A stretch of DNA of 64,000 nucleotides from Escherichia phage vB_EcoM-LTH01, in sequence record PP430345, one strand, 5' to 3'. The translations under genes were made by a program, and so were the position numbers. This document shows, piece by piece, positions 19,036 through 36,340 of the stretch; within the stretch, counting starts at the first letter, position 1, and every line of letters starts with the position of its first letter. The notes beneath the pieces were generated by a model that saw nothing but the letters and a program-made list of their open reading frames with translations, had not been told where the DNA came from and did no database searches.

Positions 19036-19193
19036 TGGACGTTAAGATCTTATCATATACAAATCTATTGGCTCTTCAAAAATTTATACTGAAGCATTAC
19101 GATTACGGTTATAAATTGATTGGTCCTGTAACAACAGGTATTAATTCAAACGGTAACACTATTTATTTGGCGACAATGATCAAGGAGCAGTAA
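19035..19193 (+). CDS. small ORF (52 aa), translationally coupled
   Basis: TGATG overlap upstream, TAATG overlap with the primase start; not in the supplied track. Confidence 0.4.
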   Translation: MDVKILSYTNLLALQKFILKHYDYGYKLIGPVTTGINSNGNTIYLATMIKEQ

Positions 19194-21238
19194 TGAGCAC
19201 TATTGGCGAAAGTCTGTTTGGCGGTTATAAGTTTGGACATAAAAATCCTAAAGCTTCAGTAGCACGTAATTATGGTGGTGGTGTGTCTCGTGTGGAAGAA
19301 ACAGTTGAAGACGTATTGACTTATCCGTGTAAAAGTATCCCTGAGCGTGGTATCGACGAAAAGACAGCTAAACGATTTGGTATTCGTACCAAGTTGTCAG
19401 CTAAAGACGGTATGACACCAGAGGCGCATTATTTTCCGTACACATTGGAAGGTAAGGTTGTAGGTTTTAAGAAGCGTGATCTTACGATCCCTAAGCAACA
19501 GAAAGGTCACTTTACAACTATTGGTTTCCAATCTGTGGCTTGTGATATGTTTGGGCTGGAAGGTGCAAATAAGTCTTCCAAACGTATGATCTTTATCACT
19601 GAAGGTGAATACGATGCTGCAATCTTGTGGCAGGTATTGACAGAGAAGTACAAACCGAAGGATGGTTCCACCCGTAAACCAAACTTCACAGTTGTATCTA
19701 TCTCTAACGGTACATCAAATGCCGTGCAAAACTTATCACAGAAGAATAACTATAAGCTTCTGAGTAAGTTTGAAGAGATTATCGTAGCTTTCGATGCTGA
19801 CCGTGCGACAGAAGCAGAGAAGGCCAAAGGGATCATGAAAGGTAAAGATGCAGTTGCAGCGGTATACTCTGTAATTCCACAAATGAAGGTCGTGGATATT
19901 CCAGAAGATATGGACCCTTGCGATATGTATAACAAAGGTCTTTCTGATCAGTTGTTTTGGGCTGCAATGAAGCCAAAAGAATATGTGCCTGATGGTTTCT
20001 CGACTTATTCACAGTTCCGCGAAAAGGCACATGAGATCCCTAAACTCGGCAAGAAGTTCCCTTGGCCCACCATGACCAAGCTTACTTTAGGCCGTCGCCC
20101 AGGTGAAGGTTACTTTATCGGGGCAGGGGTCAAAATGGGCAAGAGTGAACTTCTTAACCAGATGGTAGAGCACATCACAGGTATTGAGAAGTCAAAGGCT
20201 GCGGTGTTTAAGTTCGAAGAAGAGAACGAAATTACCTGTAAAAAGATCGCAGGTAAGCGTTATCATAAAGACTTTGTTAACGCAGAAAAGGTAATGATTC
20301 CTCAAGAAGATGGAACTTTCCGTGACATTTGGGGTAATGAAGTATTTGAAGGGCAACGTGGCTACTTTAAGCAAGAAGAACTGATCAAAGCTACAGATGA
20401 GGTTGGTGATAGTGTCATCTATTATAACAACTATGGTCGTGCAGTATGGGATGAACTGAAAGGTGCTATCCGTCACGCAGTGATTGTAGAAGGTTGTGAA
20501 GATATCTTTATTGACCCGATCACTCGTCTTGTGCAAGGTATGAGTGCTTCCGAAGCTAACCAGGAGCTGGAACGATTCTCGGATGAGATCTCTAAACTGG
20601 CAAAAGAGCTTGGCTTTACTTATTATTGCTTCTGTCACCTTAACAAGCCTGAATCTGGTAAGCCTCATGAATTTGGTGGTCAAGTCCAGTCGGCACAGTT
20701 TGCTGGTAGCCGTGCAATGATGCGTAACACTTATTACATGTGGGGTATTGAACGTAACAAAGATCCAGAACTCCCGATGAAACAACGTAACACTTCTTAC
20801 TTTGTTATTCTAGATGACCGTAAACACGGTCGTGCTGGTAAATTCCCTGTATTCTATGACATTGATACAGGTGATTATCTGGAACCGCCAGAGGGCTTCT
20901 TAGAGAGTCCTTATGAAACTCTTCGTGAGTGGTATGCCGCTCATCCAGAAGATGATCATCGTTCTCCAGACTTCAAGCCTAAGGCAGCAGAGATTCAACC
21001 CCTATCTGAACAAAACAGTGATCTCACTCGTTCAGATATTAAAGAGGAAGATATTCCTGAGCCGGATGATAACTTCCTGCGTGAGCAAGAGGAAGAGATC
21101 AAGAAGGTTATGGAAGAAATGGAACAACCCTCAGAAGAACCTACATGGGAGCAACAAAGTATCGTTGAATCCGCAGGTGATATTCCTGATGTGCCGGACA
21201 CAGAGCCGGATGATTGGGACGACAACGCACCTTTCTGA
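19193..21238 (+). CDS. bifunctional DNA primase/helicase (T7 gp4-like: Toprim primase plus DnaB-family helicase)
   Basis: Toprim-like IFITEGEYDAAILW; helicase Walker A GAGVKMGKSEL; 681 aa. Confidence 0.75.
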   Translation: MSTIGESLFGGYKFGHKNPKASVARNYGGGVSRVEETVEDVLTYPCKSIPERGIDEKTAKRFGIRTKLSAKDGMTPEAHYFPYTLEGKVVGFKKRDLTIPKQQKGHFTTIGFQSVACDMFGLEGANKSSKRMIFITEGEYDAAILWQVLTEKYKPKDGSTRKPNFTVVSISNGTSNAVQNLSQKNNYKLLSKFEEIIVAFDADRATEAEKAKGIMKGKDAVAAVYSVIPQMKVVDIPEDMDPCDMYNKGLSDQLFWAAMKPKEYVPDGFSTYSQFREKAHEIPKLGKKFPWPTMTKLTLGRRPGEGYFIGAGVKMGKSELLNQMVEHITGIEKSKAAVFKFEEENEITCKKIAGKRYHKDFVNAEKVMIPQEDGTFRDIWGNEVFEGQRGYFKQEELIKATDEVGDSVIYYNNYGRAVWDELKGAIRHAVIVEGCEDIFIDPITRLVQGMSASEANQELERFSDEISKLAKELGFTYYCFCHLNKPESGKPHEFGGQVQSAQFAGSRAMMRNTYYMWGIERNKDPELPMKQRNTSYFVILDDRKHGRAGKFPVFYDIDTGDYLEPPEGFLESPYETLREWYAAHPEDDHRSPDFKPKAAEIQPLSEQNSDLTRSDIKEEDIPEPDDNFLREQEEEIKKVMEEMEQPSEEPTWEQQSIVESAGDIPDVPDTEPDDWDDNAPF

Positions 21239-21246
21239 TCCTAAAA

Positions 21247-21274
21247 ATAAACCGCCTTCGGGCGGTTTATTTCT
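21247..21274 (+). terminator. rho-independent terminator after the primase-helicase gene
   Basis: AAACCGCC-TTCG-GGCGGTTT hairpin followed by a T-tract. Confidence 0.7.
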
Positions 21275-21275
21275 A

Positions 21276-21304
21276 TTGACACCCTCATCAAACTCCCCTA
21301 TACT
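21276..21304 (+). promoter_or_regulatory. sigma70-like promoter TTGACA-N17-TATACT
   Basis: Hexamers directly after the terminator and upstream of the 21336 gene. Confidence 0.5.
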
Positions 21305-21335
21305 TCTCCCATACCAAACAGAAAGGAGAAAACAA

Positions 21336-21599
21336 ATGCACTACTCACAAAATGACAAAATCGAATTTGAAGTTGGCGACCTGATTGTAAATCGCTCTTA
21401 CGATAATACTCCATTCGTAGAGGTTGTTACCTTTGTTGGTGAAGAAGGTGTTGTTGTGCATTCCATTGGTGGTGTTGTCGGTATGCTTGAGCGATACATC
21501 AAATACGGCAAAGTAACCGACAGCTATCCTCAGATTTATCATAAACGAAATGCAGAATCTTATATCGAATTCGTATCCACACTGAACAAAGGAGAATAA
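21336..21599 (+). CDS. hypothetical protein (87 aa)
   Basis: ATG preceded by AAAGGAG; the track ORF 20913-21599 is a 5' over-extension through the terminator. Confidence 0.6.
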   Translation: MHYSQNDKIEFEVGDLIVNRSYDNTPFVEVVTFVGEEGVVVHSIGGVVGMLERYIKYGKVTDSYPQIYHKRNAESYIEFVSTLNKGE

Positions 21600-33160: not shown

Positions 33161-33543
33161 GTTTATCAAAAAATAGAAAAGAGTTTAATGAATTTATTGA
33201 CAGCTTGGCAGGAAAGCCTTATATTAATGCCATCGTCTCTAAATATCCTTTGGCGCATCTGACCTTTGTTCCAGAAAAGCGATTGTACCAACTGGAAGAG
33301 GATGAAGTATTTTGCTGTACGTGCGGTTGTGGTGAGGTAAAACCTATTATGGTCCCTTACCCAACATTGAGTGTTGTATCACATACCGACGGACTGGAGG
33401 AGGCAGTAATCCACGGTTTTTGGGTATCACCTTGTAAACAAAAAAGTTCTTTTGATGATGAAGGTATTGTTGAATACTATGACATTGAAGTATTCAATGA
33501 TAAAACTGGTGAAATTGTTAAAGTGGAGATCAATTACGAATGA
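33157..33543 (+). CDS. hypothetical protein (128 aa) with CCTCGCG cluster
   Basis: ORF. Confidence 0.55.
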   Translation: MSLSKNRKEFNEFIDSLAGKPYINAIVSKYPLAHLTFVPEKRLYQLEEDEVFCCTCGCGEVKPIMVPYPTLSVVSHTDGLEEAVIHGFWVSPCKQKSSFDDEGIVEYYDIEVFNDKTGEIVKVEINYE

Positions 33544-33857
33544 AAATTGTATGGGGTTTTACTAAAATAATCTTTATGATCCTGTGCCTTGCTGTACTAA
33601 ACCCACATCGTTTACTGCTGGCCTTGATTCACCTTTTAGCTGCAATATTTAGTTTTATCGCTTGGCGACTAGAAGACCTCGCGGGCTTTATGGGGAAGTG
33701 CGTTAAGAAAGGCATGAAGAAATTCTGGCTTTTTGGTGAGAAGTTATTATCTGAGCCTTTACATAAGGAAATCGAAAAGCTGGATATTATTTTGAAGGCC
33801 GCAGAAAAGAAACTCAATCCGAATAATGTTGACAAGGAAAAGGATGATGGTGTATAA
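33540..33857 (+). CDS. membrane protein (105 aa)
   Basis: Hydrophobic N-terminal helices. Confidence 0.55.
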   Translation: MKIVWGFTKIIFMILCLAVLNPHRLLLALIHLLAAIFSFIAWRLEDLAGFMGKCVKKGMKKFWLFGEKLLSEPLHKEIEKLDIILKAAEKKLNPNNVDKEKDDGV

Positions 33858-34050
33858 AGTATTCTGCGAATGGGATATTGGTCAAGAAGGTATTGCATTT
33901 GTTTCAGAAAAGGCAGCACTCAATTGGATAGAGGGTCAAAAAGATATTCTTCTGTCTGACATTGATGAGACTATAAAAAGTCTTATGAAGCAACGTCTTT
34001 TAGTTATTGAGCCACTAATTGTTATTGATGAAAAAGGAGAAAGAGTATGA
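33826..34050 (+). CDS. hypothetical protein (74 aa; start uncertain)
   Basis: ORF. Confidence 0.45.
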   Translation: MLTRKRMMVYKVFCEWDIGQEGIAFVSEKAALNWIEGQKDILLSDIDETIKSLMKQRLLVIEPLIVIDEKGERV

Positions 34051-34655
34051 TCAAGAAGTTTGTTGCTTGGGTAAAATCGCTGTTTATTCCTCTGGAAGTA
34101 GAAACTGCGGCGATCGACAAGTATATTGCAAAGCAGGCCGAACAGCGTAAGGAGACTGAAAGCGTTAAATTCGGCCCAGTTGAAACACGCGATCTGGAAG
34201 AACCATTAAAAGAAAATGAGGTATTGGTTGGGGTAAACATCAAAGATAAGACGATGAAGGTTGTTGATATCTCTGTTGAACGACCAAAATCACAGGCTAC
34301 GCCGCCGAAACCGTTGGATGAACAACTGAAGGGTGTTGAATTACCGTCCTATGCTCAAGGTAAGAAATTACCACCGAAGGCAAAGCGACAGTATATTGAT
34401 CAGGCCCGTCGGGCAGCACCACGTAAGATGAGCGACTCTCCAAATGGGTATGGAACTAGCCAGGTTGATCCTCAGGTGGCAGCTTTAGGTGGTGTGGCAA
34501 CGTATACTGCTGTAATGTCCTCCAGTGAAGATCGTACAAGTAGTTCAAGTTCTCACTGTTCTTCAAGTCGGTCAAGTTCGTATGATAGCTCATCATCGTA
34601 TGATAGTTATTCTTCTGATAGTAGCAGCAGTAGTTCTTCAAGCAGTTGTGATTGA
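34047..34655 (+). CDS. hypothetical protein (202 aa) with a Ser-rich low-complexity C-terminal tail
   Basis: Last ~46 residues (from SSSEDRTS to SSSSSSCD) are about 70% Ser, with Tyr/Asp interspersed. Confidence 0.6.
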   Translation: MIKKFVAWVKSLFIPLEVETAAIDKYIAKQAEQRKETESVKFGPVETRDLEEPLKENEVLVGVNIKDKTMKVVDISVERPKSQATPPKPLDEQLKGVELPSYAQGKKLPPKAKRQYIDQARRAAPRKMSDSPNGYGTSQVDPQVAALGGVATYTAVMSSSEDRTSSSSSHCSSSRSSSYDSSSSYDSYSSDSSSSSSSSSCD

Positions 34656-34722
34656 TATTTAAGAGAGGGGCCGAAAGGCTCCTCACATCGGGAGTAAGAG
34701 TTTTAATTAGAGGAGTGATGAA

Positions 34723-35124
34723 ATGCGTAAAGTATACCCTAAGAAGCCAAATGCCACTAAAACCCCACGCTACGGTTCTGAAGAATGTCCGCGAATCACG
34801 GATGAAGAATCTCGTATCGTTAAGGAAAATTTTGCAGAAATATTTTTGTTTGGTCCCACTAATAATGATCCGTACACTCTGTTGGCTGAACGTTTAGGCT
34901 CAGATCGCAATCGAGCAAAAACTGTATACTATGCTTGGGTTTATCGACAGAAAGGTCATTATTTTCGTCATGTTACTCGGGAGCGTCAAGTTCGTTCACG
35001 TTTAGTCTGTCGTATCAAAAAGTACACAGAATTCTTAAACAATCCAGAAACTATCTATCAGATTATGTGTCGTGCAGAAGATGAGGTTGACGAACTGATT
35101 GCTAAGGGGACTATCAAACAATGA
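34723..35124 (+). CDS. hypothetical protein (133 aa)
   Basis: ORF with GGAG ribosome-binding site. Confidence 0.6.
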   Translation: MRKVYPKKPNATKTPRYGSEECPRITDEESRIVKENFAEIFLFGPTNNDPYTLLAERLGSDRNRAKTVYYAWVYRQKGHYFRHVTRERQVRSRLVCRIKKYTEFLNNPETIYQIMCRAEDEVDELIAKGTIKQ

Positions 35125-35276
35125 TGATTTCTCCAGAGATTTTTGTAACGTTTTTCATTATGGTTTCTCTTGCAGGATCAAGGTTTTTACCTTTCAACGT
35201 ACTAAGTGCGACATGGTTCATACTTGGGACAATATTTGCAGTAGAGACTACAAAATATTTTGGAGGTAGCTATTGA
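35124..35276 (+). CDS. possible small membrane protein (50 aa)
   Basis: TGATG-coupled start, hydrophobic; not in the supplied track. Confidence 0.35.
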   Translation: MISPEIFVTFFIMVSLAGSRFLPFNVLSATWFILGTIFAVETTKYFGGSY

Positions 35277-35572
35277 AAAGGTTAATCATTTTATGTATAC
35301 TTCTTCTTGTTGGTTGCGGAGAGGGTGAAGATGAGCAGACAAAGCGATACAAAAATCTACCTTCTCTGATGCCAACAGAGGTTAAGGAGTTACACGAATT
35401 TTGCAAGAAGCAACACAATTATTACAACAGTTATGCGGTTGTTGTTGATGGTGAAGCAAAATCTGTAATTTGCAAGTTCAAAGATAGTGAACGTGAAAAA
35501 GGTATCTCCTCAGGTTATACGTGGGATGCTCAAAGTTTAAGAGATAAAATGAAGGGGGTTAAAAATGAGTAA
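35273..35572 (+). CDS. putative lipoprotein (99 aa, TTG start)
   Basis: GGAGG ribosome-binding site; signal peptide with lipobox LVGC. Confidence 0.55.
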   Translation: MKRLIILCILLLVGCGEGEDEQTKRYKNLPSLMPTEVKELHEFCKKQHNYYNSYAVVVDGEAKSVICKFKDSEREKGISSGYTWDAQSLRDKMKGVKNE

Positions 35573-35753
35573 TGATCTTAGTTCACATGCGGTAATGGGA
35601 CCTGGTGGTGCACTGATCGGGATCGCAATCACAAAAGGTATTGCAAATGAAATTATCATGGAGTTTCAAAAGAAAGGTCGAACGGGTTACTATGCAACCC
35701 CTGTAGAAAGTTGGATGTTAGATTACTTTAAAGACGATACCGAGGAGGCTTAA
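35565..35753 (+). CDS. hypothetical protein (62 aa)
   Basis: ORF. Confidence 0.5.
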   Translation: MSNDLSSHAVMGPGGALIGIAITKGIANEIIMEFQKKGRTGYYATPVESWMLDYFKDDTEEA

Positions 35754-36340
35754 TGGAATACATTAGTTGGTTGTTTATCTTATCTGCGTGGGTTATCTTT
35801 GCTATCTGGTTAGCCCCTGTGATCATCGCTTTCCGTCGTAATCACAAGAACAAGGTTGTAATTTTAGCTTTGTCATTCTTTACTTCAATGATCCCTTACC
35901 CGCTTGCATTGTTTGCTTGTTGGATAGTTCTGTTGGCTTGGTCATTGTATAAAGTTTCAGTGGTCAATGATGGCTCAAAGTCTGCATATTTAGATTCTAA
36001 GTATCTTGAGTATGCAAAAGGACCGCAAGGTTTACCTGGTCCAATGGGTCCCCGTGGAGAGTCTGCTTATGAAACATACCTGAGAATTCTTCGTAAAGAA
36101 GATCCTAGCGCTATCCCACTAAATGAGAAGGATTGGCTGGATAGTTTAAAAGGGTTGGATGGTGACAAAGGTGATCGAGGGCCATCTGCATACGATCTGT
36201 ATTGCTTATCTGTATGGTCCAAAGGTGATGGTAAAGTACCTCTGTCTTTAGATGAGTGGCTAGAATCTCTCCGTGGTAAAGATGCAGACGAATTACCTTT
36301 ATCTAAAAAAGGTGTCGTTAGTCCACCAAAACGTCCTTGA
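35753..36340 (+). CDS. membrane-anchored protein with a tail-fibre-like repeat domain
   Basis: N-terminal hydrophobic helices; then GPQGLPGPMGPRG and two repeats of the SAYE/D.Y...(D/E)WL(D/E)SL(K/R)G type. Confidence 0.6.
   Translation: MEYISWLFILSAWVIFAIWLAPVIIAFRRNHKNKVVILALSFFTSMIPYPLALFACWIVLLAWSLYKVSVVNDGSKSAYLDSKYLEYAKGPQGLPGPMGPRGESAYETYLRILRKEDPSAIPLNEKDWLDSLKGLDGDKGDRGPSAYDLYCLSVWSKGDGKVPLSLDEWLESLRGKDADELPLSKKGVVSPPKRP

What the first reader, a model, noticed from the sequence alone, without database searches (positions are those of the whole stretch)
34505..34655. Ser-rich low-complexity C-terminal tail on a 202-aa early protein
The last ~46 residues (SSSEDRTSSSSSHCSSSRSSSYDSSSSYDSYSSDSSSSSSSSSCD) are about 70% Ser with Tyr and Asp interspersed. 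Such tails can be phosphorylation or glycosylation substrates or disordered interaction regions, and the DNA repeat is prone to slippage.
Basis: seen in the sequence. Interest (0 to 1): 0.35.

Follow-up and report, generated by a model that had tools for sequence, protein, structure and literature searches.

The report
Conserved Cys-capped serine-rich phage protein tail
The serine-rich tail is real and under selection: it is the disordered end of a non-virion phage protein of unknown function, it almost always finishes in Ser-Cys-Asp, and the same tail module turns up in several unrelated groups of phages.

Summary
ORF 34047-34655 (+) encodes 202 aa, and residues 158-202 contain 30 Ser out of 45.

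- **Origin:** the window is a Septuagintavirus (Vequintavirinae) coliphage.
- **Not an artefact:** five isolates from Uganda and Ireland all have a 202-aa protein. In the tail, 10 of 13 variable codons are synonymous.
- **No DNA repeat:** all six Ser codons are mixed and Tandem Repeats Finder finds nothing. Even so, tail length changes by in-frame indels between related phages.
- **More than low complexity:**
  - 79 of 83 family members end in exactly SCD.
  - 76 of those 79 have exactly two Cys, which bracket a tail of median 46 aa.
  - That tail almost never contains Lys, Arg or hydrophobic residues.
  - Tyr recurs every 4-6 residues in S-Y-D/S motifs.
- **Wider distribution:** the C-terminal module (short hydrophobic helix, VEExK/RSS, S/Y/D tail, SCD) also occurs in other phage proteins (hhalign 98.5%). 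It is linked to Pfam DUF7206 of Karamvirus. Its genes usually sit among replication or nucleotide-metabolism genes.
- **Structure and location:** AlphaFold2 predicts the tail as disordered. The W70 virion proteome does not list the protein.

Function is unknown. My best guess is a membrane-proximal flexible tether that presents a C-terminal binding tip. Modification, export and metal binding remain untested. Interest is moderate.

The parts
34047..34655 (+). Complete CDS (202 aa plus stop) of the Ser-tail protein; PHROG 13005, annotated 'hypothetical protein' in relatives
   Evidence: PHROG 13005 E=4.7e-43 over the full length; orthologs 94-98% identical in UPEC06, A73, A5-4 and A7_1, with W70 matching by tblastn only
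34050..34082 (+). N-terminal amphipathic helix (residues 2-12, IKKFVAWVKSL), a putative membrane-binding helix
   Evidence: AF2 helix 2-12, pLDDT about 81. Hydrophobic moment 0.55-0.59. M1, K3, K4, K10, L12 and F13 are nearly invariant. Some distant module-bearing proteins have a true N-terminal TM helix at this position.
34335..34397 (+). Most conserved linear motif of the family (residues 97-117, VELPSYAQGKKLPPKAKRQYI); it lies within a segment (residues 86-128) of net charge +7
   Evidence: Invariant P100, Y102, L108, P109, P110, A112, K113; charge calculation
34467..34514 (+). Short hydrophobic, small-residue segment (residues 141-156, DPQVAALGGVATYTAV); first element of the conserved C-terminal module
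   Evidence: Aligned by hhalign to DNFLTGAMVGYLFADSL of a separate phage clade. Too weakly hydrophobic for a TM helix: the best 19-residue Kyte-Doolittle mean here is 0.88. It is predicted helical in the compact clade.
34515..34652 (+). Ser/Tyr/Asp-rich disordered tail (residues 157-202)
   Evidence: 30 of 45 residues are Ser. AF2 pLDDT below 50 over most of it. 10 of 13 variable codons are synonymous and the other reading frames are not conserved.
34557..34559 (+). Cys171, the first of the two family-conserved cysteines, at the start of the tail
   Evidence: 76 of the 79 CD-ending members have exactly two Cys, one 25-52 residues upstream of the penultimate Cys
34644..34652 (+). C-terminal tip Ser200-Cys201-Asp202 (SCD-COOH)
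   Evidence: 79 of 83 family members end in SCD. S200 and D202 are invariant and C201 at least 90% conserved in alignment A2. SCD or TCD also occurs in the A5 clade and in the Karamvirus DUF7206 protein.
33847..34050 (+). Upstream small gene (67 aa from the start annotated in relatives; the longest ORF starts at 33826). Its stop overlaps the start of the tail gene (ATGA). PHROG 9656.
   Evidence: conserved and overlapping in Certrevirus, adjacent in SSBI34
34665..34684 (+). GC-rich 8-bp hairpin with a GAAA tetraloop, 10 nt after the stop codon, with no U-tract
   Evidence: RNAfold. Relatives carry a hairpin at the same position with a different sequence (UUCG loop in Certrevirus).
34723..35124 (+). 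Downstream syntenic gene (133 aa, PHROG 12333, unknown function)
   Evidence: a gene of about 120-142 aa follows in all Vequintavirinae relatives examined

Best explanation
The tail is the functional, intrinsically disordered C-terminal module of a non-structural phage protein. The protein is made from the replication (early or middle) gene block.

Proposed working model:
1. The N-terminal amphipathic helix holds the protein at the cytoplasmic face of the inner membrane.
2. A basic, highly conserved linear motif (VELPxYAxGKxLPPKAKR) contacts a partner.
3. After a short hydrophobic helix, a flexible polar tail follows. It has a net charge of -4 and almost no Lys, Arg or hydrophobic residues. 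It carries regularly spaced S-Y-D/S 'sticker' motifs.
4. The tail ends in a strictly conserved Ser-Cys-Asp carboxy-terminal tip. This tip acts as a docking or ligand-binding element, either in trans on a host or phage partner, or in cis on the protein's own basic segment.

What is shown: the reality of the tail, purifying selection on it, predicted disorder, motif conservation, the spread of the module across phage lineages, and absence from the published virion protein list.

What is inferred: membrane association, cytoplasmic location, and the tether-plus-tip mechanism.
For: - **Real and selected.** Five isolates share an identical length and 94-98% identity. In the tail, 10 of 13 variable codons are synonymous, while the overlapping frames change or carry stops.
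- **Position-specific conservation.** 79 of 83 members end in SCD, and 76 of those 79 have exactly two Cys.
- **Tail composition.** Between the first Cys and the end (median 46 aa) there is at most one K/R in all 74 tails examined, and no L/I/V/M/F/W in 63 of them. Tyr is preceded by Ser in 84% of cases against 54% expected, and followed by Asp in 40% against 10% expected. Tyr-Tyr spacing peaks at 5.
- **Ser content itself is not fixed.** It ranges from 26% to 71% across the family, so the pattern is conserved rather than poly-Ser.
- **Disorder.** AF2 pLDDT is below 50 over most of residues 127-202, while the N-terminal part reaches about 85. A second clade gives the same picture, though from a low-confidence model (mean pLDDT 52).
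- **Module homology.** hhalign between the Vequintavirinae family and a separate clade of 120-155-aa proteins gives probability 98.5% and E=1.7e-15 over hydrophobic helix to SCD. Distant homologs P0080 and P0082 carry Pfam DUF7206 over the same region.
- **Membrane hint.** The N-terminal helix is amphipathic. Several distant module-bearing proteins have an N-terminal TM helix followed by basic residues instead, or a TPM domain plus a TM helix.
- **Context.** Eight neighbourhoods were examined. Most are phage replication or nucleotide-metabolism blocks, and no modifying enzyme recurs among them.
- **Not in the virion.** The protein is not among the 28 W70 virion proteins listed.
- **Charge layout.** Residues 86-128 are +7 and the tail is -4.
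Against: - No experiment or homology ties the family to any function. Pfam, NCBIfam, PDB sequence search and fold searches all returned nothing.
- Membrane binding is inferred only from helix amphipathicity and from distant relatives whose homology is limited to the tail module. hhalign did not align the N-terminal helices.
- A lineage found on 48 contigs carries a clean in-frame deletion of the hydrophobic segment and the whole tail, keeping only ...GSPSCD. The tail is therefore dispensable in at least some phages.
- The first Cys is absent from the compact clade, which has SCDSGC instead. The 'Cys bracket' is therefore not universal.
- AF2 disorder predictions for low-complexity sequence are weak evidence.
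Confidence: 0.45

Rival explanations
1. The tail is mainly a substrate for post-translational modification. Candidates are Ser or Tyr phosphorylation (which could make a polyanionic nucleic-acid mimic or a kinase/phosphatase decoy), O-glycosylation, or another modification of Ser, Tyr or Cys.
For: The composition is dominated by hydroxyl residues. The conserved S-Y-D and D-S-G-S-S contexts put acidic residues next to Ser and Tyr. Disordered tails are typical modification sites. The conserved Cys-Asp tip could be an enzyme recognition or attachment site.
Against: No kinase, glycosyltransferase, radical-SAM or other maturase gene recurs next to the gene in any of the eight neighbourhoods examined. 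The Septuagintavirus genome paper mentions no kinase, glycosyltransferase or radical-SAM enzyme (0 occurrences). From general knowledge, E. coli has few Ser/Thr/Tyr kinases and no general cytoplasmic O-glycosylation. No modification data exist.
Confidence: 0.2
2. The tail is exported. The weakly hydrophobic segment before it would act as a membrane span. The Lys/Arg-free acidic tail would be translocated to the periplasm, where the two cysteines form a DsbA-dependent disulfide that closes a 30-50-residue Ser-rich loop. This would suit an envelope or superinfection-exclusion role.
For: Exactly two Cys bracket the tail in 76 of 79 members. The tail almost entirely lacks positive charges while a strongly basic segment precedes the hydrophobic patch, which fits the positive-inside rule. 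One distant member, P0105, has a 20-residue hydrophobic stretch at this position. Neighbouring genes in the window encode a lipoprotein, an Imm-like membrane protein and a protein with two TM-like segments.
Against: The hydrophobic patch is only about 14 residues, rich in Gly, Ala, Thr and Tyr, and flanked by Asp. The best 19-residue Kyte-Doolittle mean there is 0.88, and 1.33 anywhere in the protein, both below the usual 1.6 TM threshold. There is no signal peptide. The compact clade lacks the first Cys. In the TM-anchored distant members, the positive charges after the N-terminal TM place the rest of the protein in the cytoplasm.
Confidence: 0.1
3. The two Cys with their adjacent acidic residues (EEC...SCD, SCDSGC, SCD...TCD) form a metal or redox site. 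This could be Zn, Fe or Fe-S bridging two chains, or a redox-sensitive switch. The Ser-rich stretch would be only a spacer.
For: A count of two Cys is strongly conserved in proteins otherwise free of Cys. Each Cys sits next to Asp or Glu. The SCD unit is duplicated in several branches: P0080 has SSCD...SSCD, EnC15_0023 has SCD...TCD, and the A5 clade has SCDSGC.
Against: No known metal-binding motif such as CxxC pairs is present in most members. The Cys-Cys spacing varies from 9 to 53 residues. Some distant tails replace Cys with Trp, Phe or Tyr (SWD, SFD, SYD), which argues for a docking residue rather than a ligand. Nothing was measured.
Confidence: 0.1
4. The tail is a functionally neutral low-complexity expansion produced by slippage or unequal recombination, or an assembly artefact.
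For: Tail length differs in 38% of family pairs that are at least 95% identical before the tail. A tail-less lineage exists.
Against: The sequence and length are independently reproduced in five isolates from two continents. Synonymous changes dominate. There is no tandem DNA repeat. The SCD end is invariant, the S-Y-D motifs are conserved, and the module is conserved across distinct phage groups.
Confidence: 0.05

Closest known systems
PHROG 13005 (Vequintavirinae 'hypothetical protein', e.g. A54_257, CR3_041, phiTE_004, CR9_041)
   Same: Full-length homology (E=4.7e-43). Same gene order: a small upstream gene (PHROG 9656), overlapping the start in most relatives, and a downstream gene (PHROG 12333). 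Same tail ending in SCD.
   Different: Nothing essential. The window's protein is an ordinary member. Its tail is among the most Ser-rich (67%, against 26-71% in the family), and its first Cys lies a few residues further into the tail.
Pfam DUF7206 (PF23836; Karamvirus/CC31-like T4-type phages, e.g. EnC15_0023, 130 aa)
   Same: An N-terminal helix that looks similar by eye (MIMNFVRGLFG). A Ser-rich C-terminus with SCD...TCD at the very end. A position among early genes next to the RNA polymerase ADP-ribosylase gene. Bridging proteins P0080 and P0082 combine the N-terminal half of the query family with a DUF7206 C-terminal half.
   Different: The query itself does not match the DUF7206 model (no Pfam hit at E<=1). 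DUF7206 has a YMGDGMMEEVIV core that the query lacks. Function is unknown for both.
Acidic disordered C-terminal tails with a terminal docking tip in replication proteins (E. coli SSB ...DDDIPF, T7 gp2.5, the Ser-rich acidic A-domain of T4 gp32); comparison made from general knowledge
   Same: A disordered linker ends in a conserved carboxy-terminal tip. The chain also has a basic region that the tail could contact. The gene lies in a replication block. Some distant relatives end in an aromatic residue plus Asp (SWD, SFD, SDF).
   Different: AF2 predicts no OB fold. The tip is Ser-Cys-Asp, not acidic residues followed by a terminal hydrophobic residue. The linker is Ser/Tyr-rich rather than Gly/Pro/Gln-rich or Asp-rich. 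No ssDNA-binding evidence exists. This is an analogy of mechanism only.
Tyr/Ser-rich low-complexity 'sticker-spacer' domains (FUS-like [G/S]Y[G/S] regions); comparison made from general knowledge
   Same: Tyr every 4-6 residues in a Ser/Gly matrix, almost no aliphatic or basic residues, and predicted disorder.
   Different: Only about 45 residues with 3-8 Tyr. Asp follows Tyr in 40% of cases. Conserved Cys residues and a fixed terminus are present. The setting is bacterial and viral. Self-association was not tested.

Membership tests
PHROG 13005 | Full-length profile match | tested here: met
   E=4.7e-43, residues 1-200 against profile positions 1-217 of 230
Pfam DUF7206 (PF23836) | Score above the gathering threshold (25.6 bits) against the Pfam model | tested here: not met
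   The query has no Pfam hit at E<=1. Distant homologs P0080 and P0082 score 65 bits, and EnC15_0023 scores 85 bits.
Shared C-terminal module (hydrophobic helix, VEExK/RSS, S/Y/D tail, SCD), defined here | Profile-profile homology over the module, and an SCD tip | tested here: met
   hhalign A2 against A5: probability 98.5%, E=1.7e-15, 62 aligned columns ending in SCD
Tandem-repeat / slippage-prone coding microsatellite | Head-to-tail DNA repeat or homocodon run | tested here: not met
   Tandem Repeats Finder gives 0 rows at minimum score 30. Six Ser codons are interleaved and the longest homopolymer is 2 nt.
Integral membrane protein | A hydrophobic segment long and hydrophobic enough to span the bilayer | tested here: not met
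   The best 19-residue Kyte-Doolittle mean is 1.33 (N-terminus) and 0.88 (residues 140-158)
RiPP precursor or class IIb (siderophore) microcin with a Ser-rich C-terminus | Short precursor with a leader peptide, plus an adjacent maturase, export or modification gene | tested here: not met
   The protein is 202 aa with a partly folded N-terminal part. None of the eight neighbourhoods holds a recurrent enzyme gene. The terminal residue is Asp, not Ser.
Serine-rich-repeat / SD-repeat surface glycoproteins | Signal peptide, cell-wall anchor, and dedicated glycosyltransferases or an accessory Sec system | tested here: not met
   No signal peptide or anchor is visible in the sequence. No glycosyltransferase is mentioned for the genus.
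SSB-type acidic C-terminal tip | OB-fold DNA-binding domain and a carboxy-terminal acidic stretch plus hydrophobic tip (DDDIPF-like) | tested here: not met
   AF2 gives two helices plus a three-stranded sheet, with no fold match in PDB or BFVD. The tip is SCD.
Virion (structural or internal) protein | Detection in purified particles | tested here: not met
   The 28 W70 virion proteins listed start at W70_106 and none lies in this gene block (PMC11370258). This is published negative evidence, not an experiment done here.
Phosphorylated or glycosylated tail | Covalent modification detected on the protein | not testable with these tools
   Needs mass spectrometry of protein from infected cells

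The most novel reading that the evidence does not exclude
The tail belongs to a previously undescribed, phage-specific protein module, found in Vequintavirinae, Karamvirus and many uncultured phages. In this reading the module is a membrane-tethered, Lys/Arg-free Ser/Tyr/Asp tether capped by a Cys-Asp tip. That tip would be covalently modified, bind a metal, or dock onto a specific host factor. Phages would use it from their replication gene block to hijack or block a host process, for example by anchoring or shielding replication complexes, or by acting as a decoy for a host enzyme or defence sensor.
Probability: 0.15. Interest if true: 0.7.

Novelty: new variant of a known kind. Interest (0 to 1): 0.38.

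Why it matters
Low-complexity tails in phage 'hypothetical proteins' are usually dismissed as noise. This one carries a strictly conserved carboxy-terminal tripeptide, a conserved cysteine count and a regular Tyr pattern. The module recurs in several otherwise unrelated phage groups, usually beside replication or nucleotide-metabolism genes. That makes it a defined, testable element, with an obvious peptide for pull-downs and point mutants to make, in a family that currently has no function. If a partner or modification is found, it would annotate PHROG 13005, its DUF7206 relatives and well over a hundred metagenomic proteins at once. As it stands, it is a moderately interesting, well-delimited unknown rather than a surprise.

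Tried and rejected
**Searches that found nothing**
- Pfam and NCBIfam scans of the query and both syntenic neighbours gave no meaningful hit.
- PHROG hits were all 'unknown function'.
- The PDB sequence profile search returned 0 hits at E<=1.
- Foldseek against BFVD and PDB found only the protein's own ortholog, then noise.
- Literature searches for 'Vequintavirinae' with 'serine-rich', for 'DUF7206' and for 'YDSGSS' returned 0 papers. A broader phage/disordered-tail search found nothing relevant.
- An IMG/VR scan added no further Septuagintavirus relatives, only four Certrevirus-type loci.

**Checks that did not reach significance**
- Tandem Repeats Finder found nothing.
- The sigma70 and terminator scan was no better than shuffled sequence (24 promoter-like sites against 23.0 expected).
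- The Certrevirus early-promoter consensus gave 6 matches against 2.8 expected. The one near the gene overlaps the upstream gene's start codon.

**Ideas considered and rejected**
- An alternative-frame ORF inside the tail (34525-34662, hydrophobic 45 aa): rejected, because it changes non-synonymously wherever the main frame changes synonymously.
- A RiPP or microcin precursor: rejected, no partner enzyme.
- A transmembrane topology: rejected on hydropathy.
- An assembly artefact: rejected on five independent genomes.
- A Wzc/Etk tyrosine-kinase decoy and an SSB-tip mimic: kept only as untested analogies.
Full report
**1. The observation**

ORF 34047-34655 (+) starts with ATG behind an AAGGAG ribosome-binding site and encodes 202 aa. 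Residues 158-202 are SSSEDRTSSSSSHCSSSRSSSYDSSSSYDSYSSDSSSSSSSSSCD. That is 30 Ser out of 45 (67%), plus 4 Asp, 3 Tyr and 2 Cys.

Among 391 six-frame ORFs of at least 40 aa in the window, this is the only one with more than 14 Ser in any 30-residue stretch (it has 22). It is also the only one ending in CD.

**2. What the window is**

The region matches five Escherichia phages at 92-95% nucleotide identity: UPEC06, A73, W70, A5-4 and A7_1. These are Vequintavirinae, and NCBI names the A5-4 ortholog's source Septuagintavirus sv54.

The gene lies on the same strand as a PIF1-like helicase, a DnaB-type helicase and DNA polymerase A. It sits in a run of small ORFs that ends where the tail-fibre genes begin on the other strand.

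The published W70 virion proteome lists 28 proteins, starting at W70_106, and none lies in this gene block (PMC11370258). In the sister genus Certrevirus, sigma70-like promoters mark such regions as early or middle (PMC7344957). 'Early' is therefore plausible but unproven. 'Non-structural' has published negative support.

**3. Artefact or slippage?**

- The four orthologs aligned are 202 aa, and all five records hold the same 609-nt gene. The aligned proteins are 94-98% identical and their tails have identical length.
- Thirteen codons vary in the tail. Ten of those changes are synonymous.
- The +1 frame through the tail, a hydrophobic-looking 45-aa ORF, changes non-synonymously at those same sites. 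The other frame is full of stops.
- All six Ser codons are interleaved (AGT 11, TCA 6, TCT 5, AGC 4, TCC 2, TCG 2). The longest homopolymer is 2 nt.
- Tandem Repeats Finder reports nothing at score 30.

So this is not an assembly artefact, and the DNA is not a repeat. The tail is still indel-prone over evolutionary time across the wider family. The table shows how often the Cys-to-end length differs between pairs.

| Identity of the pair before the tail | Pairs with different tail length | Largest difference |
|---|---|---|
| at least 95% | 38% | 17 residues |
| 90-95% | 86% | 18 residues |

**4. The tail carries position-specific information**

A search of 5.8 billion proteins returned 82 relatives. 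The tail statistics below come from 74 members that start with Met, have two Cys and end in CD.

- 79 of the 83 sequences, counting the query, end in exactly S-C-D. The four exceptions are two truncated or frameshifted sequences, one ending in SSCSSD, and one that stops two residues short.
- 76 of those 79 contain exactly two cysteines in the whole protein. One is at the start of the tail, usually in VEECRSS. The other is the penultimate residue.
- From the first Cys to the end, the median length is 46 residues.
- Tail composition is S 53%, Y 13%, D 10.5% and G 5%.
- No tail has more than one Lys or Arg, and that one sits in a conserved position.
- 63 of the 74 tails have no L, I, V, M, F or W.
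- Ser content ranges from 26% to 71%. CR9-type tails read PSYTPSYDSTPSYSSPSYDSPSSYDGGYSGGSCD. Poly-Ser is therefore not the conserved property.
- Tyr is preceded by Ser in 84% of cases (54% expected) and followed by Asp in 40% (10% expected). Tyr-Tyr spacing peaks at 5.

**5. The rest of the protein**

The family alignment and AlphaFold2 (mean pLDDT 63) give the following layout:

- an N-terminal helix, residues 2-12 (MIKKFVAWVKSLF), nearly invariant and amphipathic, with hydrophobic moment 0.55-0.59;
- a second helix, residues 20-35;
- a three-stranded sheet at residues 39-78, with block-mean pLDDT about 76-86. This part is variable and deleted in some members;
- the most conserved stretch of the family, VELPSYAQGKKLPPKAKRQYI, with P100, Y102, L108, P109, P110, A112 and K113 invariant. 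It lies in a segment of net charge +7;
- a short small-residue hydrophobic segment, DPQVAALGGVATYTAV;
- the tail, with pLDDT below 50.

No segment reaches transmembrane hydrophobicity. There are no Pfam, NCBIfam, PDB-sequence or fold matches. PHROG 13005 matches over the full length and is labelled 'unknown function'.

**6. The tail module occurs in other phage proteins**

An exhaustive profile search of 1.84 billion cluster representatives found only 37 clusters. The weaker hits share only the C-terminal part. Their N-termini differ:

- P0099, P0100, P0101, P0102 and P0105 have a true N-terminal TM helix followed by basic residues.
- P0104 has a TPM domain plus a TM helix.
- Some of these tails end in SWD, SFD, SDF or DSW instead of SCD.

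A second search, using a profile of the module alone, found 118 proteins. Most belong to a compact clade of 120-155 aa with this architecture: MGIFKKIWHWLFGKKEVE ... DLPKYASGGY ... DNFLTGAMVGYLFADSLNDN ... VEETKSSNYESSYTPSSSSSYDSGSYSSSYDSGSSSSSCDSGC.

- hhalign between the two alignments gives probability 98.5% and E=1.7e-15 over the hydrophobic helix, the VEE-x-K/R-SS motif and the tail up to SCD.
- The resemblance of the N-terminal helices and of the 'LPxYAxG' motifs is visible by eye, but hhalign did not align them.
- AF2 of this clade also gives three short helices and a disordered tail, though at low confidence (mean pLDDT 52).
- Distant homologs P0080 and P0082 combine the query-type N-terminal half with a C-terminal half that matches Pfam DUF7206.
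- DUF7206 itself is a 130-aa early-region protein of Karamvirus (CC31, PG7, EnC15). It ends in ...TSCDTGGGFTCD.
- The query does not reach the DUF7206 threshold.

**7. Genomic context**

Within Vequintavirinae the gene is preceded by a 67-74-aa gene (PHROG 9656). That gene's stop overlaps the tail gene's start in Septuagintavirus and Certrevirus, and it lies just upstream in SSBI34. A gene of about 120-142 aa (PHROG 12333 in the window) follows.

Five of the six neighbourhoods of distant module-bearing proteins contain replication or nucleotide-metabolism genes. These include:

- a primase-helicase, a UvrD-type helicase and DNA polymerase A;
- ThyX;
- DNA and RNA ligases with NAD-salvage genes;
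- DpdA with a nucleoside deoxyribosyltransferase;
- RecT with GroEL/ES.

The sixth holds sigma70-region-4-like regulators and a PAPS reductase. No kinase, glycosyltransferase, radical-SAM enzyme or peptidase recurs in any of them. The Septuagintavirus genome paper mentions none either.

**8. Interpretation**

Shown:
- The tail is a real, translated, purifying-selected C-terminal module with predicted disorder.
- It has a conserved terminal tripeptide, a conserved Cys count and a regular S-Y-D/S pattern.
- It is shared among several phage lineages, and the protein is absent from the published virion protein list.

Inferred:
- The N-terminal amphipathic helix, replaced by a true TM helix in some distant relatives, places the protein at the cytoplasmic face of the inner membrane.
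- The basic conserved motif binds a partner.
- The Lys/Arg-free and hydrophobe-free tail acts as a flexible tether with Tyr 'stickers'.
- The tail presents the Cys-Asp carboxy terminus as a docking or ligand-binding tip.

Mechanistically this resembles the disordered acidic tails with terminal tips of SSB, T7 gp2.5 and T4 gp32. That comparison comes from general knowledge. None of the defining features of those families is met, so it is an analogy only.

I put 0.45 on this general model. The rivals are:
- a modification substrate (0.2; no partner enzyme found, untestable here);
- an exported, disulfide-closed periplasmic loop (0.1; it fits the Cys pair, the charge distribution and the membrane-protein neighbours, but the hydrophobic patch is too short and too polar);
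- a metal or redox site (0.1);
- neutral slippage junk or an artefact (0.05 or less).

Against any essential role: a lineage seen on 48 contigs has a clean in-frame deletion of the hydrophobic segment and the tail, keeping only ...GSPSCD.

**9. Novelty and score**

The gene is already deposited as a hypothetical protein and is catalogued as PHROG 13005. Ser-rich disordered tails are a familiar kind of feature. I found no description of several specifics (0 literature hits). These are the invariant SCD tip, the two-Cys rule, the S-Y-D periodicity, and the recognition that the tail belongs to a module shared with DUF7206 relatives and with well over a hundred metagenomic phage proteins.

I rate it a new variant of a known kind, with interest 0.38. 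It is a clean, testable unknown rather than a surprise.

Noticed in passing
window 34665-34684: An 8-bp GC-rich hairpin with a GAAA tetraloop lies 10 nt after the stop codon and has no U-tract. The same position holds GGGGGC-TTCG-GCCCCC in Certrevirus (CR3, phiTE, CR9, L007) and GGGGCG-TTATA-CGCCCC in SSBI34. The hairpin is conserved in position while its sequence differs, so it may be an mRNA-stability or processing element.
   Followed up: partly
window 35273-35572 (+): A 99-aa ORF with a lipoprotein signal and lipobox (MKRLIILCILLLVGC). It matches PHROG 15849, function unknown, and could be a superinfection-exclusion-type lipoprotein.
   Followed up: no
window 35753-36340 (+): A 195-aa ORF with an odd combination of features. 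It has an N-terminal membrane segment weakly matching the Imm superinfection-immunity domain (E=6.5e-4, below the Pfam cutoff). It also has collagen-like G-X-Y runs and weak hits to tail-fibre PHROGs.
   Followed up: no
window 33540-33857 (+): A 105-aa ORF with two hydrophobic, TM-like segments (PHROG 5603, function unknown). With the two ORFs above, it shows that this block encodes several predicted membrane or envelope proteins.
   Followed up: no
window 19193-21238 and 20913-21599 (+): The DnaB_C-type helicase ORF overlaps a 228-aa ORF carrying a Phage_tudor domain by about 326 nt in another frame. The start of the second gene may lie further downstream, or the overlap may be real.
   Followed up: no
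L007 3001-3387 (Logan SRR15674971 contig; protein P0039): A natural tail-less variant of the family (128 aa) is indexed on 48 contigs. It is a clean in-frame deletion of the hydrophobic segment and the whole Ser-rich tail, and it still ends in ...GSPSCD followed by the conserved hairpin.
   Followed up: partly
L013 2543-2935 (Enterobacter phage EnC15, Karamvirus, EnC15_0023): The Pfam DUF7206 prototype in T4-like phages lies between soc and the RNA polymerase ADP-ribosylase gene. It has an N-terminal helix that looks similar by eye, and it ends in ...SCDTGGGFTCD. The [ST]-C-D end is therefore shared between two different myovirus groups.
   Followed up: partly
window 33827-33858 (+): A one-mismatch match to the Certrevirus early-promoter consensus TGTTGAC-N19-TATAAT. 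It overlaps the annotated start codon of the upstream small gene. It is not significant window-wide (6 matches against 2.8 expected).
   Followed up: no
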